A stretch of DNA of 64,000 nt from Escherichia coli (lineage in GTDB: Bacteria; Pseudomonadota; Gammaproteobacteria; Enterobacterales; Enterobacteriaceae). Within the stretch, counting starts at the first letter, position 1. Each line of letters opens with the position of its first letter. The DNA is taken from NCBI RefSeq assembly GCF_036507355.1, contig NZ_AP027877.1. The stretch is one strand, 5' to 3'. Both the position numbers and the translations under genes were made by a program. This document shows positions 5,298 through 60,035 of the stretch, piece by piece. Below the pieces are notes generated by a model. The model did no database searches. It saw only the letters and a program-made list of their open reading frames with translations, and was not told the origin of the DNA.

Positions 5298-6344
<1,047 letters not shown>

Positions 6345-6455
6345 TCCTCTCTTTATCTGCTATACCTGGTAGTGTCCTTTCCTCAAGGTTAATGATAAAA
6401 AATGTGGCACACAGGCGGTGCCTTTTATTTTTACTGAAGTTCACAGGAGGTTTAT

Positions 6456-7223
6456 GTGTTTAATTCTGACAACCTGAGACTCGACGGAAAATGCGCCATC
6501 ATCACAGGTGCGGGTGCAGGTATTGGTAAAGAAATCGCCATTACATTCGCGACAGCTGGCGCATCTGTGGTGGTCAGTGATATTAACGCCGACGCAGCTA
6601 ACCATGTTGTAGACGAAATTCAACAACTGGGTGGTCAGGCATTTGCCTGCCGTTGTGATATTACTTCCGAACAGGAACTCTCTGCACTGGCAGACTTTGC
6701 TATCAGTAAGCTGGGTAAAGTTGATATTCTGGTTAACAACGCCGGTGGCGGTGGACCTAAACCGTTTGATATGCCAATGGCGGATTTTCGCCGTGCTTAT
6801 GAACTGAATGTGTTTTCTTTTTTCCATCTGTCACAACTTGTTGCGCCAGAAATGGAAAAAAATGGCGGTGGCGTTATTCTGACCATCACTTCTATGGCGG
6901 CAGAAAATAAAAATATAAACATGACTTCCTATGCATCATCTAAAGCTGCGGCCAGTCATCTGGTCAGAAATATGGCGTTTGACCTGGGTGAAAAAAATAT
7001 TCGGGTAAATGGCATTGCGCCGGGGGCAATATTAACCGATGCCCTGAAATCCGTTATTACACCAGAAATTGAACAAAAAATGTTACAGCACACGCCGATC
7101 AGACGTCTGGGCCAACCGCAAGATATTGCTAACGCAGCTCTGTTCCTTTGCTCGCCTGCAGCCAGCTGGGTAAGCGGACAAATTCTCACCGTCTCCGGTG
7201 GTGGGGTACAGGAGCTCAATTAA
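6456..7223 (+). CDS. hdhA: 7-alpha-hydroxysteroid dehydrogenase (short-chain dehydrogenase/reductase family)
   Basis: 255-aa ORF with SDR glycine motif TGAGAGIG and catalytic YxxxK (YASSK). Confidence 0.9.
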   Translation: MFNSDNLRLDGKCAIITGAGAGIGKEIAITFATAGASVVVSDINADAANHVVDEIQQLGGQAFACRCDITSEQELSALADFAISKLGKVDILVNNAGGGGPKPFDMPMADFRRAYELNVFSFFHLSQLVAPEMEKNGGGVILTITSMAAENKNINMTSYASSKAAASHLVRNMAFDLGEKNIRVNGIAPGAILTDALKSVITPEIEQKMLQHTPIRRLGQPQDIANAALFLCSPAASWVSGQILTVSGGGVQELN

Positions 7224-7233
7224 TACACTAACG

Positions 7234-7266
7234 AACCGGTAAACAGCCGTATGTGTTGTTTACCGG
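7234..7266 (+). terminator. hairpin downstream of hdhA (candidate intrinsic terminator)
   Basis: Inverted repeat ccggtaaaca ... tgtttaccgg immediately after the hdhA stop. Confidence 0.5.
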
Positions 7267-7451
7267 GATAGCGTGTGCAATTCATCAACGTCTCTGCTAA
7301 ACAACTGGCAGCCAAATCACGGCTATTGGTTAACCAATAGCTGGATGAAAAGCATACGAATAGAGTGTGCCTTCGCACTATTCAACAGCAATGATAGGCG
7401 CTCACCTGACAACGCGGTAAACTAGTTATTCACGCTAACTATAATGGTTTA

Positions 7452-8042
7452 ATGATGGATAACATGCAGACTGAAGCACAACCGACACGGACCCGGATCC
7501 TCAATGCTGCCAGAGAGATTTTTTCAGAAAATGGATTTCACAGTGCCTCGATGAAAGCCATCTGTAAATCCTGCGCCATTAGTCCCGGGACGCTCTATCA
7601 CCATTTCATCTCCAAAGAAGCCTTGATTCAGGCGATTATCTTACAGGACCAGGAGAGGGCGCTGGCCCGTTTCCGGGAACCGATTGAAGGGATTCATTTT
7701 GTTGACTATATGGTCGAGTCTATTGTCTCTCTCACCCATGAAGCCTTTGGGCAACGGGCGCTGGTGGTCGAAATTATGGCGGAAGGGATGCGTAACCCAC
7801 AGGTCGCCGCCATGCTTAAAAATAAGCATATGACGATCACTGAATTTGTTGCTCAGCGGATGCGTGATGCCCAGCAAAAAGGCGAGATAAGCCCAGACAT
7901 CAACACGGCAATGACTTCACGTTTACTGCTGGATCTGACCTACGGTGTACTGGCCGATATCGAAGCGGAAGACCTGGCGCGTGAAGCGTCGTTTGCTCAG
8001 GGATTACGCGCGATGATTGGCGGTATCTTAACCGCATCCTGA
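7452..8042 (+). CDS. uidR: TetR-family repressor of the uid operon
   Basis: 196-aa ORF with N-terminal TetR HTH; located directly upstream of uidA. Confidence 0.9.
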   Translation: MMDNMQTEAQPTRTRILNAAREIFSENGFHSASMKAICKSCAISPGTLYHHFISKEALIQAIILQDQERALARFREPIEGIHFVDYMVESIVSLTHEAFGQRALVVEIMAEGMRNPQVAAMLKNKHMTITEFVAQRMRDAQQKGEISPDINTAMTSRLLLDLTYGVLADIEAEDLAREASFAQGLRAMIGGILTAS

Positions 8043-8430
8043 TCTTCTCATTTCGCGGGCTGGTGATAACTGTGCCCGCGTTTCATACTTTAATTTCCCT
8101 GTACAAAATACAATCTCCCCGGGATCGGAGAATTCCCCCCCCAAAATATTCACCGTAGCCATATGTCATGAGAGTTTATCGTTCTCAAGATGCTCGAACG
8201 AACGTTCGATTGCTTATTTTATGGCTTCTGTCAACGCTGTTTTAAAGATTAATGCGATCTATATCACGCTGTGGGTATTGCAGTTTTTGGTTTTTTGATC
8301 GCGGCGTCAGTTCTTTTTATTTCCATTTCTCTTCCATGGGTTTCTCACAGATAACTGTGTGCAACACAGAATTGGTTAACTAATCAGATTAAAGGTTGAC
8401 CAGTATTTTTATCTTAATGAGGAGTCCCTT

Positions 8431-51424: not shown

Positions 51425-51470
51425 TACTGAGGTGTACTGGCAATAGCGGACACTACCATTTGTTCTTTTT

Positions 51471-52289
51471 TTAAGCAGCCATCTGATGATATTTTTCCCT
51501 GAAGGCTGCCGGGGAGATATTCCCCAGACGAGAGTGACGACGCTGACGATTGTAGAAAATCTCAATGTATTCCCGTATTACTGAGATGGCTTCATCCCGG
51601 TTATTAAAACGATAGTGGCTCAGGCTCTCATTTTTCAGCGTTCCCCAGAAGCTTTCCATCGGAGCGTTGTCGTAACAGTTACCTTTACGCGACATTGATG
51701 TTTTCAGACCAAACTGCTCCTGTATGACCCGGTAATCGTATGCGCAGTACTGTGAACCTCGATCAGAGTGGTGGATTAGCCCGGCAGGTGGGCGCTGTCT
51801 CCTGAGCGCCATAAACAGGGCTTTACCTGTCAGCTCTTTTGTCATGCGCTCTCCCATGGCGTAGCCGACAATTTCGCACGTATAAACATCTTTGATGCCA
51901 GCGAGGTACAACCATCCCTCCTGTGTGGCAACATACGTCAGGTCCGCCACCCAGACCTGATTTGGTGCTGTAGGAGCGAACGTCTGGTTCAGCAGATTTG
52001 GCGCAACTGGCAGATTGTGGTTCGAGTTCGTAGTCGCTCTGAACTTGCGTTTCTGCTTACAGCGTAGCCTTAGCTCCTTACGAAGACGTGCCAGTCGGTC
52101 ACGACCAACGATGATGCCATTCTCTGCCAGCTCCGTCTGGAGCCGCCGGGTTCCATATGTTTCGCGAGTGCGGATATGTGCCACCTTAATCTCCAGTTTT
52201 AGCCGCTCATCACTTTGTTTTCTGTCTGAGGGTTCATGCTGTACCCAGTTGTAATAACCGCTCCTGGATACACCAAATACCTGACACAT
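51471..52289 (-). CDS. IS600 transposase OrfB (DDE integrase domain)
   Basis: 272-aa ORF recognised as IS600 OrfB; DDE-type catalytic core. Confidence 0.88.
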   Translation of the reverse strand: MCQVFGVSRSGYYNWVQHEPSDRKQSDERLKLEIKVAHIRTRETYGTRRLQTELAENGIIVGRDRLARLRKELRLRCKQKRKFRATTNSNHNLPVAPNLLNQTFAPTAPNQVWVADLTYVATQEGWLYLAGIKDVYTCEIVGYAMGERMTKELTGKALFMALRRQRPPAGLIHHSDRGSQYCAYDYRVIQEQFGLKTSMSRKGNCYDNAPMESFWGTLKNESLSHYRFNNRDEAISVIREYIEIFYNRQRRHSRLGNISPAAFREKYHQMAA

Positions 52290-52324
52290 CGCTTCAATGG
52301 GAAATTGTTGTCGCCATTGTTCGA

Positions 52325-52627
52325 TTAACGCGTATTTTTCAGCGACTCCTGTGCAAAATACGCTGTTGCTTTTTTTAATATATCTCGCTCAAGGCGAGCT
52401 TCATTTAACGCCTTACGCAGTTGCAGAATTTCAGATTCCAGTTCAGCCACCGTGCGGGAACCAGGAGTACCGAGCCCTTTTCTGGCGGCGGTAACCCATT
52501 GTCCTAAAGTGCCTTCAGGAAGAGATAATCGGGAAGCGCCTTCACTGATCGAAAGTTGATTTTCAAGAACCGTTCTGACAGCTTCGGCTTTGAACTCTTT
52601 AGAGTAACGTTGGGTTTTTCTGCTCAT
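52325..52627 (-). CDS. IS600 transposase OrfA (HTH)
   Basis: 100-aa ORF MSRKTQRYSKEFKAEAVRTV... recognised as IS600 OrfA; ends at the slippery heptamer. Confidence 0.88.
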   Translation of the reverse strand: MSRKTQRYSKEFKAEAVRTVLENQLSISEGASRLSLPEGTLGQWVTAARKGLGTPGSRTVAELESEILQLRKALNEARLERDILKKATAYFAQESLKNTR

Positions 52628-54386
52628 TATTAGCTCCTTCTGATGCCATTCTATTTCAGGAAGGAGTGTCCGTTAAACTCAGGCTACCTCATACCAATAA
52701 CGGCGAGTAAGTAGTACGCATCTTACCTCTTTTTTAGAGATAACCATTATGTCAATAGAAAAACACGAAAGAAGCACTAAGGATTTGGTGAAAGCAGCAG
52801 TATCGGGATGGCTGGGCACTGCGCTTGAATTTATGGATTTCAAGAGTCATGCGTGTTAACTATTTGATAAATATTAAATTAATTTTTCATTGCTTCGTTA
52901 TGGGGCATGGTTGGGGCAAACTCGCTTAACTGTGTATTTAACAAAGCTACCTGTGCATTATTGTTTTCAGACATCCATTTTCCGTATAGACCCTCCGCAT
53001 CTTGAGAGTGTTGGTGATAACGCCTGGATGGGAAAGAAATATGGACGGCTGAATAAAGATGCCTGGCGTGATGATTCGCGACAGAGATTTAAAGAAGCCT
53101 TTCGGGTGTTGAGGCCGCACGGCGTTCTGATTTTTTAATGGAATGAAACGCAAATACCGGTAAGCCAGATTCTGGCACTGACAGACAGAAAACCTGTTAT
53201 CTGTCAACGAACAGGGAAAAAACGATAAAACCCACTGGATTATTTTTATGAAAGAGGCATCCAGTGAGTAGATTCGTAAGGCTACAGATACGTATATCTG
53301 AATAATTAAATTCAGTTCTGTAAATAAAATTTAATCCTTAACCGGATGGATTTCTGCACCCTCAGAACATCAGGAGGCCGCCCGAAAGGGCGGTAGTGAA
53401 ATGCGAAAGTTCAAAATTATTATTGAAACGGGAATAGCTGGTGGAGATTTTGAGGATGTATTCGAAGTGGACGATGACGCAACACCTGAGGAAATTCATG
53501 ACGGAGCATAAGAAATTTTCTTTAACTACTGCAATTACTCATACCACGAAATAAAAGACGATGAGGAAGAACAAAGTGGCTGATTTTTGTTCAGCTAAAT
53601 ATAACATCAGTTTTGAAGAGCGGGATGAACTATTAATGGACTATGGTGAGTTACGCGGTGGAAGTGCTGCTGATGTCGAATCCTAGCGTGATGACTATGA
53701 AGCGGGAAAAACTCCGGTCGAAGCATATTGTGATGAGTGGGGCGATGAATGAGCGAGATTAATTATCAGGAAGGGCATGAAACGGCGGGGCAAGCAAAAC
53801 CAGTGGCATGGCGATATCGCTACGTGAAAAAAGGCGTTACGGACTTTCAGGGGAAGTAGTGGTCTGGTGACTGGAAATATGTACCGAAAAAAGAGGATTG
53901 TAACGACAGGCCGAACTATCAAATTCAGGCCTTATTCACTGCCTCACCAGTCCCAGTTACATCAGAAGAACTGGTTAAAGCTGTGCACTTTTATGAACAA
54001 CTAAAACGCGAAAATCCACCAACATCCGGCAACTAGATTAATGGATTAACTATGTCGGTTAAACGACCAGCCAACTGAAAAAGCGGAAACCTGATTACAG
54101 GTTGCCAGATAAGGCAATGAGCTACCTGGCGCGGAACGGACTGATAAGTATGGGGAATGTTTTACGATGAACCTTTAGACTAAAGAGTTTGTAACGCTAT
54201 GTAAGTGATTTTTTCTGGTTTAGATATTTATATGTCCGGCCAAATTGAGGTGTGTTTAAATGTAATTGCACATTGATTGTAGGAGGAATAATGAAAAACG
54301 CATTGCAGTTTTTGTTTGTTGCGTTCTGGTTGTTCGCATCATGTATGCCCATCATCTTCACAGCAAGGTGAATCGCCACGGATAAT

Positions 54387-55199
54387 CTAGACACTTCCGA
54401 GCCGTTGATAATACTGGTTTTCATATTCTGTCGGTGACATCTGATCGCTGGAACCATGCCGACGCTTACTGTTATAAAACATTTCGATGTAATCAAAAAT
54501 ATCGCTGCGGGCTTCTTCCCGCGTTCCGTAGATCTTTTTCTTTATCCGTTCGCGTTTCAACAACTGGAAAAAGCTTTCTGCAACCGCATTATCATGGCAG
54601 TTACCGCGACGGCTCATGCTGCCATCCAGGCCGTGTGATTTCAGGAACGACTGCCACTCATGGCTTGTGTACTGACTGCCCTGATCCGAATGAACCAGCA
54701 CCTGTTTTTGGGGATTACGGCGCCATACAGCCATCAGCAGTGCGTTCAGGACAATGTCCTTTGTCATCCGGGATTGCATGGACCAGCCGATAATTTTGCG
54801 TGAGAACAGATCAACAACCACGGCAAGATACAGCCAGCCTTCGTGGGTCCTGATGTAGGTTATGTCCGTTACCCAACGCTTATCCGGAGCATCCGGATTG
54901 AACTGTCGCTGGAGCCTGTTGGGCGACACGATACTGGCCTCGCCTTTACGTGCCCGCGGGCTCCGGTATCCGACCTGAGCCTTTATCCCGACACGTTTCA
55001 TCAGTCGCCAGACTCTGTTCACTCCGCACTGTTGCCCGCTGTCCCGCAGATCCAGATGGATTTTGCGATAACCATAGACGCATCCCGATTCCAGCCAGAA
55101 CTGTTTAATCTGCCCTGTCAGCCTCAGGTCTGCCTGATGGCGTTGTGAATGCGGCTGCTGAAGCCAGGCGTAAAAACCACTGGGATGAACATCCAGCAC
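54387..55199 (-). CDS. IS3-family transposase OrfB
   Basis: 270-aa ORF with DDE integrase core (…HSDQGSQYTS…, …GNCHDNAVAESFF…). Confidence 0.85.
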   Translation of the reverse strand: MLDVHPSGFYAWLQQPHSQRHQADLRLTGQIKQFWLESGCVYGYRKIHLDLRDSGQQCGVNRVWRLMKRVGIKAQVGYRSPRARKGEASIVSPNRLQRQFNPDAPDKRWVTDITYIRTHEGWLYLAVVVDLFSRKIIGWSMQSRMTKDIVLNALLMAVWRRNPQKQVLVHSDQGSQYTSHEWQSFLKSHGLDGSMSRRGNCHDNAVAESFFQLLKRERIKKKIYGTREEARSDIFDYIEMFYNSKRRHGSSDQMSPTEYENQYYQRLGSV

Positions 55200-55255
55200 C
55201 CGACAGAGCAGGCGAACAGGCCAGCAACAGGTGTTGTCACGGATAAAGGCGTACC

Positions 55256-55540
55256 TCAGTCGGACAGCTTTGCGAAGTACGCCGCGGCTTTTTTTAATAT
55301 GTCCCGTTCGTCGGTAACCCGCTTCAGCTCTTTCTGGAGACGGCGGATCTCGGCCTGAGCATCTGACTGTTCTTTATTAGCGGAAGAATCCGGACCGTAC
55401 TTCTTTATCCAGGCGTAAAGGCTGTGGGTGGTGATATCGAGACGTGTTGCAACGCTGGCAACAGAATAACCGCGATCAACAACCTGTTTGACTGCTTCAA
55501 TTTTAAACTCTTCGGGATAACGCTTACCGCTCATGGGCAC
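55256..55540 (-). CDS. IS3-family transposase OrfA
   Basis: 94-aa HTH ORF ending at the slippery heptamer. Confidence 0.85.
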   Translation of the reverse strand: MPMSGKRYPEEFKIEAVKQVVDRGYSVASVATRLDITTHSLYAWIKKYGPDSSANKEQSDAQAEIRRLQKELKRVTDERDILKKAAAYFAKLSD

Positions 55541-55760
55541 CTCTCTTTAAGCCATCTTAAATGACTCTGAGGTGTCTGTTAAACCCGTGGCGATTCATAA
55601 TTGATCATGGGTTGTCAGTTAAACTCGTGGCGATTTAAATAGACTAATTGGGAGTGCGTCCATTACTTATATCTTGTAATGTTAACTATCAGAAATTCTT
55701 GTAATGTTAACTATCAGAAATGATACAAAGATAATATGTCTTTAAAGAAAAGGCTGATGG

Positions 55761-55785
55761 CGAAAAGTGGCCCGATGAGGGCCAC
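55761..55785 (-). terminator. intrinsic terminator of flxA
   Basis: On the minus strand: hairpin GTGGCCC-TCATC-GGGCCAC followed by TTTTC. Confidence 0.7.
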
Positions 55786-55799
55786 AATACGGCTGTCAC

Positions 55800-56132
55800 T
55801 TAGACGTAAATATCAATGGTGCCAGCGGTATTTGTATCGTCTTTTTTCTCTTCTTTTTTATCAGGCTGAACTGTCGCGTCTTCATTCTTTTTCTCTGCCT
55901 GCTGCCTTAACAACTGCTCCAGTTGAGCCCAGAGGCTTTCAATTTGCTTCTGTACCAATGCAGCCATTTCTTTTTTCTGCTGTGTCGTCATCCCCTCTTC
56001 CGATGAGATTTTCCCAAGCTTTTCAGTCAGCACCTGAATTTGTCTTGTGATTTTGGCTATTTCTGATGTTCCTTCCGGGGCGGAGTTGTTTGAAATAACG
56101 GTTGAGGTATTTCCCTGAATTGTGACAGACAT
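55800..56132 (-). CDS. flxA: FliA-regulated prophage protein FlxA
   Basis: 110-aa ORF recognised as FlxA; preceded by a sigma28-type promoter and a GGAG ribosome-binding site. Confidence 0.8.
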   Translation of the reverse strand: MSVTIQGNTSTVISNNSAPEGTSEIAKITRQIQVLTEKLGKISSEEGMTTQQKKEMAALVQKQIESLWAQLEQLLRQQAEKKNEDATVQPDKKEEKKDDTNTAGTIDIYV

Positions 56133-56155
56133 AGATTTCTCCTTTTAAAAAAGCA

Positions 56156-56182
56156 CTATCGGCATGCACAAAAAAATCTTTA
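56156..56182 (-). promoter_or_regulatory. sigma28 (FliA) promoter of flxA
   Basis: Minus strand reads TAAAGATT-N11-GCCGATAG, matching consensus TAAAGTTT-N11-GCCGATAA, about 25 nt upstream of the flxA start. Confidence 0.75.
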
Positions 56183-56334
56183 ATCGTATTTCTTGTGTCA
56201 TTAATTGTTTGATGTTCAGATTGTTTTCCTCGCGGGCTGGCGCGCCTCAGAAAGTAAAGCTTGTTGACAGGGGTAAACGTTCGGCAATAATTTTCTGCCG
56301 CATGCGGGTGTTGCATAAAACGTGTTACGTTCCT

Positions 56335-56640
56335 TTATCGACAGGTCAGGTCACCGCTCACCCGCCGACGAGAAAGCAACACTGACATGCTAAAGCAAAA
56401 AATAGATGAATAAGTTGAGTTGTGCATATGTAGCCTGACCGTCACAAAGTATATGGTGTCTGTACCAGTAAGATGATGGCCGGACTCTTTAAAAACGAGC
56501 TGACCTGCACAATACAGGATGGACTTAGCAATGGCTGCTCCTGGCACAAAGCGGACAGTGATCACCGTTCTTACGACTACTTTCTGACTTCCTTCGTGAC
56601 TTGCCCTAAGCATGTTGTAGTGCGATACTTGTAATGACAT
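56335..56640 (-). CDS. ydfV: prophage protein of unknown function (YdfV-like)
   Basis: 101-aa ORF between flxA and relB; identity rests on size and position only. Confidence 0.4.
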   Translation of the reverse strand: MSLQVSHYNMLRASHEGSQKVVVRTVITVRFVPGAAIAKSILYCAGQLVFKESGHHLTGTDTIYFVTVRLHMHNSTYSSIFCFSMSVLLSRRRVSGDLTCR

Positions 56641-56653
56641 TTGTAATTACAAG
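56628..56653. promoter_or_regulatory. relBE operator (inverted TTGTAAT repeats)
   Basis: cttgtaatgacatttgtaattacaag about 12 bp upstream of the relB ATG. Confidence 0.7.
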
Positions 56654-56664
56654 AGGTGTAAGAC

Positions 56665-56904
56665 ATGGGTAGCATTAACCTGCGTATTGACGATGAACTT
56701 AAAGCGCGTTCTTACGCCGCGCTTGAAAAAATGGGTGTAACTCCTTCTGAAGCGCTTCGTCTCATGCTCGAGTATATCGCTGACAATGAACGCTTGCCGT
56801 TCAAACAGACACTCCTGAGTGATGAAGATGCTGAACTTGTGGAGATAGTGAAAGAACGGCTTCGTAATCCTAAGCCAGTACGTGTGACGCTGGATGAACT
56901 CTGA
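56665..56904 (+). CDS. relB: RelB antitoxin
   Basis: 79-aa ORF recognised as RelB; stop overlaps the relE start. Confidence 0.92.
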   Translation: MGSINLRIDDELKARSYAALEKMGVTPSEALRLMLEYIADNERLPFKQTLLSDEDAELVEIVKERLRNPKPVRVTLDEL

Positions 56905-57191
56905 TGGCGTATTTTCTGGATTTTGACGAGCGGGCACTAAAGGAATGGCGAAAGCTGGGCTCGACGGTACGTGAACAGTTGAAAAAGAAGCTGGTTGAAG
57001 TACTTGAGTCACCCCGGATTGAAGCAAACAAGCTCCGTGGTATGCCTGATTGTTACAAGATTAAGCTCCGGTCTTCAGGCTATCGCCTTGTATACCAGGT
57101 TATAGACGAGAAAGTTGTCGTTTTCGTGATTTCTGTTGGGAAAAGAGAACGCTCGGAAGTATATAGCGAGGCGGTCAAACGCATTCTCTGA
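56904..57191 (+). CDS. relE: RelE mRNA interferase toxin
   Basis: 95-aa ORF recognised as RelE. Confidence 0.92.
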   Translation: MAYFLDFDERALKEWRKLGSTVREQLKKKLVEVLESPRIEANKLRGMPDCYKIKLRSSGYRLVYQVIDEKVVVFVISVGKRERSEVYSEAVKRIL

Positions 57192-57250
57192 ACCAAAGCT
57201 TCGCACCGAAGGTGACACTTCTGCTTTGCGTTGACAGGAGAAGCAGGCTA

Positions 57251-57406
57251 TGAAGCAGCAAAAGGCGATGTTAATCGCCCTGATCGTCATCTGTTTAACC
57301 GTCATAGTGACGGCACTGGTAACGAGGAAAGACCTCTGCGAGGTACGAATCCGAACCGGCCAGACGGAGGTCGCTGTCTTCACAGCTTACGAACCTGAGG
57401 AGTAAG
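57251..57406 (+). CDS. hokD: Hok-family type I toxin (HokD/RelF)
   Basis: 51-aa ORF MKQQKAMLIALIVICLTVIVTALVTRKDLCEVRIRTGQTEVAVFTAYEPEE translated by hand from the sequence (below the ORF-track size cutoff). Confidence 0.85.
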
Positions 57407-57471
57407 AGACCCGGCGGGGGAGAAATCCCTCGCCACCTCTGATGTGGCAGGCATCCTCAACGCACCCGCAC

Positions 57472-57500
57472 TTAACCCGCTTCGGCGGGTTTTTGTTTTT
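57472..57500 (+). terminator. intrinsic terminator after hokD
   Basis: aacccgc-ttcg-gcgggtt followed by TTTTGTTTTT. Confidence 0.7.
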
Positions 57501-57621
57501 ATTTTCAACGCGTTTGAAGTTCTGGACGGTGCCGGAATAGAATCAAAAATACTTAAGTAGCGCGCAGGGATAAGAGGGATGGTCCCTTAAAGGGGAGAGC
57601 TAATTATCCGGAAGGATTCTG

Positions 57622-57873
57622 ATGATGAACATCGAAGAACTGCGTAAAATTTTTTGTGAAGATGGCCTCTATGCTGTGTGCGTTGAAAATGGAAATCTTG
57701 TTAGTCATTACCGCATTATGTGTTTGCGAAAGAATGGGGCTGCGTTAATTAATTTTGTGGATGCTCGGGTCACGGACGGATTTATCTTGCGCGAAGGTGA
57801 GTTTGTCACTTCATTACAGGCATTGAAAGAGATCGGAATAAAAGCTGGCTTTTCTGCTTTTTCAGGAGAATAA
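57622..57873 (+). CDS. rem: prophage protein Rem
   Basis: 83-aa ORF at the position of rem in Qin-type prophages. Confidence 0.6.
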   Translation: MMNIEELRKIFCEDGLYAVCVENGNLVSHYRIMCLRKNGAALINFVDARVTDGFILREGEFVTSLQALKEIGIKAGFSAFSGE

Positions 57874-58180
57874 ACTCATCTACAATCTTGCGCGGGGCTG
57901 AACTCCCGCTGAGTAACACCGTGCCACCGGAGAAAACCGATGGCACGCAACGCAAAATATTACAATTCTGATAATTCGCCCGTTCTTGCCTGCACGCACG
58001 GGCGGTATTCTCACGCATTCAAGTCTGAATGGTTCCAGCACCCTCCATGCACTGCAGAACAGGCCGAATGGCTGATTCATTCTTACCGCAGGCGCGGGTT
58101 CGAGGTTAAGAAAGCTCTCAGTCTCGACTATCGGCACTGGATAATCTCTGTCAGGCTGCCTTATTCCGAACGCCCACCAC

Positions 58181-59269
58181 GTGCGTCCCGCACTTTCCAG
58201 CAACGGATCTGGAGGTAACGTGCGGGTATTACTTAGACCTGTTCTGGTGCCTGAGCTTGGGCTGGTGGTCCTTAAGCCGGGCCGTGAATCCATACAGATA
58301 TTTCATAATCCTCGAGTGCTGGTGGAACCGGAACCAAAAAGCATGCGTAATCTGCCATCCGGAGTCGTTCCTGCCGTTCGCCAGCCGCTGGCGGAAGACA
58401 AAACATTGCTGCCGTTTTTTAGTAACGAACGGGTGATTCGTGCTGCTGGCGGCGTTGGCGCATTGTCCGACTGGCTATTACGTCATGTTACATCCTGCCA
58501 GTGGCCTAATGGCGATTACCATCACACTGAAACAGTCATTCACCGTTATGGTACCGGCGCAATGGTGTTGTGCTGGCACTGCGACAACCAACTGCGTGAC
58601 CAGACATCGGAATCACTGGAGCTGCTTGCTCAACAAAATCTGACAGCATGGGTGATTGACGTCATCCGTCACGCAATAAGCGGTACGCAGGAGCGGGAAT
58701 TATCTTTGGCTGAATTATCCTGGTGGGCGGTCTGCAATCAGGTGGTGGATGCACTACCTGAGGCTGTATCGCGTCGTTCGCTGGGATTACCAGCGGAAAA
58801 AATCTGCTCGGTGTACCGCGAAAGCGACATCGTACCGGGAGAGCAGACCGCCACCAGCATATTGAAACAACGCACAAAAAATCTTGCACCGTTGCCTTAC
58901 GCCCACCAGCAACAAAAATCACCACAGGAAAAGACGGTGGTAAGCATCACCGTTGATCCAGAGTCTCCGGAATCTTTCATGAAGCTGCCTAAACGTCGCC
59001 GCTGGGTTAAGGAGAAATACACACGTTGGGTTAAGACACAGCCGTGTGCTTGCTGCGGTATGCCAGCCGACGATCCGCATCATCTGATTGGTCACGGGCA
59101 GGGCGGAATGGGAACAAAAGCACATGATCTCTTTGTGTTGCCTTTGTGCAGAAAGCATCACAACGAGCTGCATACGGATACAGTGGCATTTGAAGATAAG
59201 TATGGCTCCCAACTGGAGCTGATATTTCGTTTTATCGATCGCGCGCTGGCAATTGGCGTACTGGCGTAA
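58181..59269 (+). CDS. ydfU: DUF968-family prophage protein YdfU
   Basis: 362-aa ORF upstream of and overlapping the Q antiterminator gene; true start may be internal. Confidence 0.65.
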   Translation: MRPALSSNGSGGNVRVLLRPVLVPELGLVVLKPGRESIQIFHNPRVLVEPEPKSMRNLPSGVVPAVRQPLAEDKTLLPFFSNERVIRAAGGVGALSDWLLRHVTSCQWPNGDYHHTETVIHRYGTGAMVLCWHCDNQLRDQTSESLELLAQQNLTAWVIDVIRHAISGTQERELSLAELSWWAVCNQVVDALPEAVSRRSLGLPAEKICSVYRESDIVPGEQTATSILKQRTKNLAPLPYAHQQQKSPQEKTVVSITVDPESPESFMKLPKRRRWVKEKYTRWVKTQPCACCGMPADDPHHLIGHGQGGMGTKAHDLFVLPLCRKHHNELHTDTVAFEDKYGSQLELIFRFIDRALAIGVLA

Positions 59270-59282
59270 GTGGAGAACGAGC

Positions 59283-60035
59283 ATGAACCTTGAAGCCTTA
59301 CCAAAATATTACTCCCCAAAATCTCCAAAATTGAGCGATGACGCTCCAGCGACAGGCACCGGTTGTTTAACAATTACGGATGTAATGGCAGCGCAGGGGA
59401 TGGTGCAGTCGAAAGCACCACTTGGGTTGGCCTTATTTCTGGCAAAAGTTGGTGTTCAGGACCCTCAGTTTGCGATTGAAGGCCTGCTAAATTACGCGAT
59501 GGCACTGGATAACCCGACATTGAACAAATTGAGTGAAGAAATCCGGTTACAGATTATTCCTTACCTCGTGAGTTTTGCCTTTGCTGATTACTCCAGGTCT
59601 GCGGCAAGTAAGGCTCGCTGTGAGCATTGTTCAGGTACGGGATTTTATAATGTATTGCGCGAAGTGGTGAAACACTACAGACGCGGGGAATCTGTAATCA
59701 AGGAAGAATGGGTGAAGGAACTATGTCAGCATTGCCATGGTAAGGGCGAAGCCAGCACAGCGTGCAGAGGGTGTAAGGGTAAAGGGATTGTTCTGGATGA
59801 AAAAAGAACCCGGTTTCATGGCGTACCGGTATATAAGATTTGTGGGCGTTGTAATGGAAACCGGTTTAGTCGTTTACCGACCACGCTGGCACGACATCAT
59901 GTCCAGAAGCTGGTACCAGACCTGACCGATTATCAGTGGTATAAGGGGTATGCGGACGTCATTGGTAAACTGGTAACAAAGTGCTGGCAGGAAGAAGCAT
60001 ACGCGGAAGCGCAATTGAGGAAGGTGACGAGATAA
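59283..60035 (+). CDS. quuQ: lambdoid late-gene antiterminator Q
   Basis: 250 aa from MNLEALPKYY; zinc-finger cysteines (CxxC...CxxC) typical of Q proteins. Confidence 0.8.
   Translation: MNLEALPKYYSPKSPKLSDDAPATGTGCLTITDVMAAQGMVQSKAPLGLALFLAKVGVQDPQFAIEGLLNYAMALDNPTLNKLSEEIRLQIIPYLVSFAFADYSRSAASKARCEHCSGTGFYNVLREVVKHYRRGESVIKEEWVKELCQHCHGKGEASTACRGCKGKGIVLDEKRTRFHGVPVYKICGRCNGNRFSRLPTTLARHHVQKLVPDLTDYQWYKGYADVIGKLVTKCWQEEAYAEAQLRKVTR

What the first reader, a model, noticed from the sequence alone, without database searches (positions are those of the whole stretch)
54369..55642. Second IS3-family element lacks a target-site duplication and is followed by an extra IR-like fragment
The element ends at 55602 (…gtggcgattca) and is followed 10 bp later by a second, diverged copy of the terminal repeat (gggttgtcagttaaactcgtggcgattta, 55613..55642). 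The flanks (agg / taa) do not match. This suggests IS-mediated deletion or recombination between two copies, which would explain the missing dic/immunity genes between this point and flxA.
Basis: inference. Interest (0 to 1): 0.45.

Follow-up and report, generated by a model that had tools for sequence, protein, structure and literature searches.

The report
ISEhe3 copy marking a prophage deletion
An intact mobile element (ISEhe3) sits where about 2 kb of a defective Qin prophage has been lost, next to a much older leftover end of a related element; this is an ordinary kind of IS-linked genome erosion.

Summary
An intact 1,229-bp IS3-family element (ISEhe3) lies at 54369..55597. It has no target-site duplication (flanks AGG / TAA). 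Eleven bases after its right tip comes a real 29-bp copy of its right inverted repeat (55609..55637, 24/29 identical).

In IS-free Qin prophages such as E. coli ATCC 8739, the two flanks are 2,009 bp apart, so the IS marks a true deletion. The lost DNA is not the dic/immunity region. It is the hok leader/sok RNA plus the left end and transposase (intK/ydfW) of an IS1202-family transposon. The dic genes were removed by a separate, IS-free deletion at ~52986.

The IR-like fragment is not a scar of this event. It is identical in about 1,190 IS-free E. coli genomes, K-12 included, and also occurs on Enterobacter plasmids.

The route to the deletion is unresolved: recombination between two ISEhe3 copies, a transposase-driven intramolecular event, or a break repaired through the 5-bp ATTCA microhomology at the right junction. 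No parental or identical junction was found in any collection searched. This is an ordinary case.

In passing: the flxA–ydfV–relBE block is cargo of an ISEsa1 transposon that repeatedly inserts at hok start codons.

The parts
54369..55597 (-). Intact ISEhe3 (IS3 family), 1,229 bp, with TG…CA ends and its genes on the minus strand
   Evidence: Ends were read. Ten other copies have the same 1,229-bp length and ends. It differs by 1 nt from the commonest E. coli variant. The exact OrfA sequence is named 'ISEhe3 transposase A' in UniRef.
54369..54397 (+). Left inverted repeat (IRL): TGAATCGCCACGGATAATCTAGACACTTC
55569..55597 (-). Right inverted repeat (IRR): TGAATCGCCACGGGTTTAACAGACACCTC, 22/29 identical to IRL
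55256..55534 (-). orfA (92 aa, HTH_Tnp_1 domain)
   Evidence: ORF list. Pfam PF01527 at 72 bits.
55288..55294 (-). A-AAA-AAG slippery motif for the -1 frameshift that fuses orfA and orfB
   Evidence: RefSeq annotates 'programmed frameshift' in near-identical copies.
54387..55199 (-). orfB (rve DDE catalytic domain)
   Evidence: NCBIfam NF033516 IS3 family transposase at 337.8 bits against a cut-off of 160. Pfam rve at 115 bits.
54366..54368 (.). Left flank AGG, the left deletion endpoint (equivalent to ATCC 8739 locus L003 position 5850)
55598..55600 (.). Right flank TAA, the right deletion endpoint (equivalent to L003 position 7860). The native bases just left of it, …GCAATTCA, share ATTCA with the IS tip.
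55598..55637 (-). Ancient solo relic of an ISEhe3-like right inverted repeat (core 55609..55637). Its tip is mutated from TG to TA.
   Evidence: 24/29 ungapped and 78% over 41-43 bp. It is 100% identical in IS-free ATCC 8739 and present in 1,191 E. coli genomes, in K-12 derivatives and on an Enterobacter plasmid. Pantoea, Tatumella and Enterobacter IS variants share its diagnostic CGAG.
54292..54371 (+). Small membrane-like ORF cut down to 26 codons, with its stop supplied by the IS's first TGA. The native form has 59 codons.
   Evidence: No family match.
55800..56132 (-). flxA, untouched by the event. The IS lies downstream of its 3' end.
57228..57251 (+). Surviving right tip (…GCGTTGACA, ending at 57236) of the IS1202-family ISEsa1 transposon, followed by the right copy of its 15-bp target duplication GGAGAAGCAGGCTAT, which runs into the hokD start codon. 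The left tip and left duplication are missing from the window, which shows that the window's state is derived.
52982..52990 (.). Joint of the separate, IS-free deletion that removed the integrase through dicB, dicA and dicC up to the methyltransferase N-terminus (GTAT microhomology)

Best explanation
The element is a recently arrived, intact ISEhe3 (IS3 family) whose two flanks come from two different places in the Qin prophage. It marks an IS-anchored deletion of 2,009 bp.

Shown:
- The ancestral arrangement is the one still present in E. coli ATCC 8739 and about 670 other genomes. Its order is: small ORF, hok leader/sok RNA, then the ISEsa1 transposon (left end, transposase = intK+ydfW, old IR relic, flxA, ydfV, relBE, right end), then hokD.
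- In the window, everything from inside the small ORF to 12 bp before the old relic is replaced exactly by the IS.
- Both breakpoints lie precisely at the IS termini.

Inferred:
- ISEhe3 first inserted normally, with a 3-bp duplication, at one or both of these sites.
- The DNA on one side was then lost in an event that used the IS end.
- I commit to RecA-dependent recombination between two directly repeated ISEhe3 copies about 2 kb apart as the single most likely route (about 0.4).
- Second is a transposase-driven intramolecular attack from an IS end or a tandem IR-IR junction (about 0.3).
- Third is a break at the IS tip repaired through the 5-bp ATTCA microhomology (about 0.25).

The neighbouring IR-like fragment is not part of this event. 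It is an old, inactive relic (tip TA instead of TG) of a related IS, carried as part of the transposon's cargo.
For: - Flank mapping: window 52984-54369 matches L003 4465-5851, and window 55587-59726 matches L003 7849-12001, at 99.6-99.9% identity.
- The native interval holds an Rfam sok match at 104 bits and a 437-aa ISNCY/IS1202-family transposase ORF.
- No E. coli genome joins the two flanks directly: 0 of 5,426 reach 80% coverage.
- The window keeps the right tip and right target duplication of the ISEsa1 transposon but not the left ones, so its state must be derived by deletion.
- This IS normally makes 3-bp duplications (5 of 8 copies), and none can be found here.
- The IS differs by only 1 nt from the commonest variant, so it is a recent copy.
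- The relic is 100% identical in IS-free genomes and is on plasmids.
- Loss of duplications through recombination between resident IS copies is the standard explanation in the IS literature (bioRxiv 10.1101/2022.12.17.520857).
- Deletions that start at the edge of an IR of a reactive junction are documented for copy-out-paste-in elements (PMC9333248).
Against: - No intermediate was found. There is no genome with ISEhe3 at only one of the two sites, and none with two copies flanking the 2-kb segment. No synthetic parental junction reached its 50% mark in 5,426 genomes.
- The same junctions are absent from E. coli complete genomes, plasmids, GTDB species representatives and JGI metagenomes.
- The source genome could not be retrieved, so other copies that might carry reciprocal flanks were not examined.
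- The 5-bp identity (ATTCA) between the IS tip and the deleted native sequence, roughly a 1 in 1,000 chance, is not predicted by homologous recombination.
- The window shows another microhomology deletion at 52986.
Confidence: 0.85

Rival explanations
1. Two copies of this IS recombined, the extra IR-like fragment is what remains of the second copy, and the same event removed the dic/immunity genes.
For: The IS lacks a duplication and marks a real deletion. The fragment is homologous to the right repeat.
Against: - The fragment is present, 100% identical, in about 1,190 genomes that have no IS there, and on plasmids.
- It is 17-22% diverged from the IS end, while the IS itself is 1 nt from the common variant.
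- The dic genes map upstream of the left flank and are lost through an IS-free joint at 52986.
Confidence: 0.03
2. Microhomology-mediated deletion. A single ISEhe3 inserted at the left site (duplication AGG). Later the 2,012 bp between the IS's terminal ATTCA and the native ATTCA (L003 7855-7859) were lost, either by slippage or by repair of a transposase nick at the IS tip.
For: - There are 5 identical bases (8 of 11) at the right junction.
- The same prophage carries another microhomology deletion (GTAT) with no IS.
- IS3-family transposases nick exactly at the terminal CA (PMC2909936; PMC7780238).
Against: - Five matching bases is only about a 1 in 1,000 coincidence.
- The two other ISEhe3-associated deletions at this locus (L001, L002) show 0-1 bp of homology.
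- A spontaneous deletion ending exactly at an IS tip is improbable a priori unless the transposase initiates it.
Confidence: 0.25
3. Attraction by the IR relic. The old relic, which keeps the subterminal transposase-binding part of the repeat, attracts ISEhe3. This makes the DNA downstream of flxA a recurrent insertion and rearrangement site, and the window's copy is one such event.
For: - Three ISEhe3 copies lie with their right ends within 153 bp of each other (native positions 7860, 7908, 8013).
- All three have the same orientation as the relic, and they are three different sequence variants (1, 17 and 25 nt apart), hence independent.
- Integration next to an IR is documented for IS30 and IS911 (PMC9333248; PMC7986276).
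- The IS911 transposase binds the subterminal part of the repeat rather than the tip (PMC7780238).
Against: - Canonical IR-targeting joins the incoming IRL to the outside tip of the target IR, with a spacer of a few bp. Here the IS lies on the inner side of the relic, and it is its IRR that is adjacent.
- No tandem IRR-IRR arrangement of this IS was found in metagenomes or viral contigs, or in plasmids carrying the relic.
- The region is dispensable DNA hit by several other IS types (IS150, IS200C), so tolerance rather than targeting may explain the clustering.
Confidence: 0.25
4. Simple insertion whose 3-bp duplication has decayed by point mutation, or whose ends were mis-assigned.
For: None beyond the general possibility.
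Against: - The flanks are 2,009 bp apart in every IS-free relative.
- No duplication appears under any end shift.
- The flanks are 99.6-100% identical to native sequence.
Confidence: 0.01

Closest known systems
ISEhe3 (IS3 family; first named from Erwinia herbicola / Pantoea agglomerans)
   Same: It has 1,229 bp, TG…CA ends, orfA/orfB with an A6G frameshift motif, and 3-bp duplications in other copies. The exact OrfA sequence carries the UniRef name 'ISEhe3 transposase A'. Close variants occur in Pantoea, Tatumella and Enterobacter.
   Different: This copy has no duplication.
IS-anchored deletions that leave an IS without its target duplication (recombination between two copies, or adjacent deletion)
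   Same: The IS is intact, both breakpoints lie exactly at its termini, the flanks are non-contiguous in relatives, and there is no duplication. Three of eight randomly fetched ISEhe3 copies also lack duplications.
   Different: The parental state was not found. The right junction carries a 5-bp identity that recombination between copies does not predict.
IR-targeted insertion by copy-out-paste-in elements (IS911, IS30)
   Same: An IR-like sequence of the same IS lineage lies 11 nt from the IS end, and independent insertions recur in one orientation.
   Different: The defining IRL-IRR junction with the target IR is absent. The IS is on the inner side of the relic.
Solo IS-end relics in cryptic prophages and plasmids
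   Same: The relic is about 40 bp, is diverged, has lost its terminal dinucleotide, and is fixed in the host element.
   Different: None that matter. The only unusual point is that a living relative has landed right beside it.

Membership tests
IS3 family (ISEhe3) | DDE (rve) transposase scoring above the family's curated cut-off | tested here: met
   OrfB scores 337.8 bits on NF033516 against a cut-off of 160. Pfam rve scores 115 bits.
IS3 family (ISEhe3) | Two overlapping ORFs joined by a -1 frameshift at an A6G-type motif | tested here: met
   orfA is at 55256..55534 and orfB at 54387..55199. The AAAAAAG motif is at 55288..55294. The frameshift itself was not tested experimentally.
IS3 family (ISEhe3) | Imperfect terminal inverted repeats ending 5'-TG…CA-3' | tested here: met
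   IRL and IRR are 22/29 identical with TG/CA tips.
IS3 family (ISEhe3) | 3-bp target-site duplication | tested here: not met
   The flanks are AGG and TAA, with no repeat under end shifts. Five of eight other copies do have one. The failure therefore concerns this copy's history, not the family assignment.
IS3 family (ISEhe3) | Identity to the ISfinder ISEhe3 reference | not testable with these tools
   Only indirect evidence is available: the UniRef name of the exact OrfA, and 92-95% identical ends in Pantoea, Tatumella and Enterobacter.
IS-anchored deletion | The flanks of the IS are separated by extra DNA in IS-free relatives, and no empty joint exists | tested here: met
   There are 2,009 bp between the flanks in ATCC 8739. 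None of 5,426 genomes has the joined flanks.
IS-anchored deletion | The state is derived, not ancestral | tested here: met
   The window retains only the right tip and right 15-bp duplication of the ISEsa1 transposon.
Recombination between two IS copies | Relatives carry a copy at each site, each with its own duplication | tested here: not met
   No synthetic parental junction reached the 50% coverage a true junction would give, in 5,426 genomes. Absence in this collection does not exclude it in the unsampled source lineage.
IR-targeted insertion (IS911 / IS30 type) | A new IRL-IRR junction between the incoming IS and the outer tip of the target IR, with a spacer of a few bp | tested here: not met
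   The IS's IRR, not its IRL, is adjacent to the relic and lies on the relic's inner side, 40 bp from its tip. The criterion is taken from PMC9333248.

The most novel reading that the evidence does not exclude
The old IR relic carried downstream of flxA acts in nature as a decoy end that recruits the ISEhe3 transposase. Under this reading, independent ISEhe3 variants repeatedly land, in one orientation, within about 150 bp of it and then trigger deletions of the adjacent hok-leader and transposase segment. That would be natural IR-targeting by a relic, with a geometry different from the laboratory IS911/IS30 cases.
Probability: 0.2. Interest if true: 0.4.

Novelty: new member of a known kind. 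Interest (0 to 1): 0.18.

Why it matters
For the finding itself, little. It documents one more IS-anchored deletion in a decaying prophage, and it corrects the idea that this IS removed the dic/immunity genes. It also shows how a fossil IS end can be mistaken for a by-product of a recent event.

The context it exposed matters more. The flxA–ydfV–relBE block of Qin is the cargo of an IS1202-family (ISEsa1) transposon that inserts at hok start codons. This explains how the relB-relE-hokD operon of E. coli K-12 arose, and it suggests a target specificity for this IS subgroup that is not noted in the one IS1202-family survey I read. The window's deletion removed that transposon's left end and transposase, leaving its cargo immobile.

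Tried and rejected
- Exact right-junction 31-mer against GTDB species representatives: 0 hits. The source organism is therefore unidentified.
- Right and left junctions against 5,426 E. coli complete genomes: none reach 80% coverage.
- Synthetic parental junctions (relic-side TAA + IRL; IRR + AGG + native): none. The apparent extensions into flanks were chance similarity on inspection.
- Synthetic empty joint: none.
- Tandem IRR…IRR pattern in JGI metagenomes gave 33 hits, all unrelated sequences. Viral contigs gave 0.
- Plasmid search for the IS-relic junction: none. One Klebsiella hit was a chance extension.
- The look-up of encoding contigs with the exact OrfB returned only a 1.2-kb read-assembly contig. 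With FlxA it returned only native arrangements.
- A second IR-like stretch in native Qin (L003 7831-7859, 19/29 to IRL) was considered as a target. It was rejected as significant on its own, because shuffles also reach 19/29. Only its terminal ATTCA at the junction is noteworthy.
- No terminal inverted repeats were found around the 2,009-bp segment that would make it a discrete mobile unit.
- The key IS911 targeting papers (PMC126149, PMC2546779) are not held. Their content is cited only through papers that describe them.
- An Rfam scan of the window region found nothing at E <= 0.01.
Full report
**1. What is in the sequence**

The element begins at 54369 with TGAATCGCCACGG and ends at 55597 with CCGTGGCGATTCA, which makes it 1,229 bp.

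The minus strand carries a 92-codon orfA (55256..55534). It also carries an orfB with HTH_21 and rve domains (54387..55199), and an AAAAAAG slippery motif at 55288..55294. OrfB scores 337.8 bits on NCBIfam's IS3-family model, whose cut-off is 160. The exact OrfA sequence is on record under the UniRef name 'ISEhe3 transposase A'. Variants with 92-95% identical ends occur in Pantoea, Tatumella and Enterobacter.

The copy differs by a single base from a variant that is identical in five unrelated E. coli genomes. It is therefore intact and recent.

**2. The missing duplication is real**

- The flanks are AGG and TAA.
- No direct repeat of 3-10 bp appears when either end is moved by up to 4 bp, or when the tip of the extra fragment is taken as the end.
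- Of eight other E. coli copies fetched at random, five carry perfect 3-bp duplications and three do not.

So this IS normally duplicates 3 bp, and losing the duplication is common for it.

**3. The extra fragment is real but old**

On the minus strand, 55609..55637 reads TAAATCGCCACGAGTTTAACTGACAACCC. That is 24/29 identical to the right inverted repeat. A gapped alignment extends the similarity to about 41-43 bp at 78%. Shuffled sequence never exceeded 19/29.

The 203 bp that follow the IS, fragment included, are 100% identical to E. coli ATCC 8739, which has no IS there. The stretch is found in 1,191 of 5,426 E. coli genomes, including K-12 derivatives.

It also occurs, with one base changed, on an Enterobacter roggenkampii IncF plasmid. 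The same native stretch matches plasmids of Salmonella and Edwardsiella.

Its tip is TA rather than the TG that IS3-family ends require. It shares the CGAG variant seen in Pantoea and Tatumella relatives of ISEhe3. It is a fossil right end of a related IS, not a by-product of the present copy.

**4. What the IS replaced**

Aligned with the Qin prophage of ATCC 8739 (locus L003), window 52984-54369 equals L003 4465-5851. Window 55587-59726 equals L003 7849-12001. The IS therefore stands in for L003 5851..7859, which is 2,009 bp. No E. coli genome joins the two flanks directly, so the 2,009 bp are not an insertion peculiar to some strains.

The lost interval holds four things:
- the end of a 59-codon membrane-like ORF;
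- a hok-type leader that matches Rfam's sok family at 104 bits;
- the left terminal repeat of an IS1202-family (ISNCY, 'ISEsa1') element;
- that element's 437-codon transposase ORF, annotated in pieces as intK/ydfW.

The window still has the right tip of that element (…GCGTTGACA, ending at 57236) and the right copy of its 15-bp duplication. It has neither the left tip nor the left copy. This independently shows that the window's arrangement is derived by deletion.

**5. What the IS did not remove**

The dic/immunity genes (ydfD, dicB, ydfC/B/A, dicA, dicC) lie upstream of the IS's left flank in native Qin. They have no match anywhere in the window.

Their absence traces to a different joint at ~52986. 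There the last 110 bp of the prophage integrase gene are fused to the interior of a methyltransferase gene, across the shared letters GTAT, with no IS present.

The other IS3-family element nearby, IS600 at 51428..52691, is a plain insertion with a TAC duplication.

**6. How the deletion arose**

*Shown:* both breakpoints coincide with the IS termini.

*Not shown:* the route. I searched for the two possible single-insertion parents, for the window's own junctions, and for the empty joint. None was found in 5,426 E. coli genomes, plasmids, GTDB representatives or metagenomes.

Three routes remain.

(a) *Recombination between two direct ISEhe3 copies about 2 kb apart.* This is the textbook reason for an IS without duplications (stated for another family in bioRxiv 10.1101/2022.12.17.520857). 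I rate it about 0.4.

(b) *A transposase-driven intramolecular event.* For copy-out-paste-in elements, deletions that start at the edge of an IR of a reactive IR-IR junction are documented (PMC9333248). I rate it about 0.3.

(c) *A break or slippage resolved through microhomology.* The native sequence just left of the right breakpoint reads GTTGCAATTCA, against the IS tip GTGGCGATTCA. The last five bases are identical, a coincidence of about 1 in 1,000. The same prophage carries the GTAT microhomology deletion described above. I rate it about 0.25.

**7. A possible hot spot**

Two E. coli genomes also carry ISEhe3 just downstream of flxA: S1-CAM-01-C (L001) and OW1E2 (L002).
- Both copies are in the same orientation as the window's copy.
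- Both lack duplications.
- Their right junctions are 48 and 153 bp further right than the window's.
- Their IS copies differ from the window's by 25 and 17 bases spread along the whole element, so the three are independent insertions.
- In L001 the IS replaces 2,615 bp of native DNA spanning the interval the window has lost (L003 5398-8012).

Clustering beside a relic of the IS's own end recalls IR-targeted insertion of IS911 and IS30. However, the defining geometry is not met. In canonical targeting the incoming left end abuts the outer tip of the target repeat; here the IS lies on the inner side of the relic.

The region is also dispensable and is hit by other IS types, IS150 and IS200C. 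I therefore treat attraction by the relic as a minority reading (0.2-0.25).

**8. Side observation**

In an uninterrupted lambdoid prophage, the hok leader runs straight into the hok start codon (L021). In Qin, a 3.3-kb unit is inserted between the AT and the G of that codon.

The unit runs, in order: left end TGTTAACACC…, ISEsa1 transposase, the IR relic, flxA, ydfV, relB, relE, right end …GCGTTGACA. It is flanked by the 15-bp repeat GGAGAAGCAGGCTAT.

Other copies point to site-specific insertion:
- The same unit, 97.4% identical, sits on an Enterobacter IncF plasmid. It is at the same point of a different hok gene and has its own duplication, GGAGAAGAAGGCCAT.
- A Phytobacter plasmid has the same transposase core at the same point of a third hok leader, but with nickel-resistance genes as cargo.
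- 459 plasmids match at least 80% of a query spanning the hok leader and the IS left end.
- The 15-17-bp duplication, the TGT ends and the passenger genes fit the ISTde1 subgroup of the IS1202 family. The one survey of the family I read reports no xrs (XerCD-site) targeting for that subgroup and mentions no other target preference.

That relBE integrated into the hokD locus has been noted before (PMC6379469). I did not find the transposon structure or the start-codon specificity described, but my literature check was limited.

**9. Verdict**

It is wrong on two counts: what was deleted, and the origin of the fragment. This is a new instance of a well-known kind of event, of low general interest.

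Noticed in passing
window 55598..57251 (cargo and right end); full element in L003 6213..9510; plasmid copy in L067/L069: The flxA–ydfV–relB–relE block, together with the IR relic, is the cargo of a 3.3-kb IS1202-family (ISEsa1) transposon. It has TGT…ACA ends (19/26 inverted repeat) and a 15-bp target duplication, and it is inserted between the AT and the G of the hokD start codon. A 97.4% identical copy on an Enterobacter IncF plasmid splits a different hok gene at the same point with its own duplication. A Phytobacter plasmid has the same core at the same point of a third hok leader, with nickel-resistance cargo. This suggests site-specific targeting of hok start regions and explains the origin of the relB-relE-hokD operon.
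   Followed up: partly
window ~52982..52990: A separate, IS-free deletion joins the last 110 bp of the Qin integrase gene to the interior of a SAM-methyltransferase gene across a GTAT microhomology. It removes the integrase, exonuclease, ydfD, dicB, ydfC/B/A, dicA, dicC, ydaT and replication genes.
   Followed up: yes
window 51428..52691: IS600 (1,264 bp) is flanked by a perfect 3-bp duplication TAC. It is a simple insertion between rspB and the prophage end. Three bovine or veal E. coli strains matched this whole 9-kb stretch, IS600 included; whether their IS600 sits at the same position was not checked.
   Followed up: partly
window 55672..55721: A 25-bp unit, tcttgtaatgttaactatcagaaat, is present as two tandem copies here. 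The 45 E. coli records that match this stretch at 99% or more include ATCC 8739; the remaining ~1,150 match at only 80-90%, and the two sequences aligned directly (OW1E2 and an Enterobacter plasmid) carry a single copy.
   Followed up: no
L001 (E. coli S1-CAM-01-C) 6317..7545 and L002 (E. coli OW1E2) 6002..7230: Two further, independent ISEhe3 variants lie just downstream of flxA, in the same orientation and without duplications. In L001 the IS replaces 2,615 bp of native DNA (L003 5398-8012). In L002 the left flank is the distant ykgL region, which indicates a large rearrangement through IS copies.
   Followed up: partly
L004 (E. coli 300709) 6691..8060; hit H211 (E. coli strain 405): Other IS types (IS150, IS200C) are inserted in the same hok-leader / ISEsa1 region of Qin in other strains. 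The spot accumulates insertion sequences.
   Followed up: no
L061 and L062, about 6567..8206: Some Qin-like prophages carry KwaA/KwaB (Kiwa anti-phage defence) genes directly beside the ISEsa1 transposase and flxA region.
   Followed up: no
window 54292..54371; native L003 5772..5951: An unannotated 59-codon ORF encodes a hydrophobic small protein (MKNALQFLFVAFWLF…). It lies just upstream of the hok leader and has no Pfam or NCBIfam match. The IS cuts it down to 26 codons.
   Followed up: partly
L030 91..151 (metagenome contig Ga0265780_10009580): Two tandem copies of an IS3-like right end (…GAGTGTC…GTCGTGGCGATTCA), about 50 bp apart, sit at the edge of an environmental contig. This may be another 'IS end plus extra end' arrangement in an unrelated IS.
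   Followed up: no
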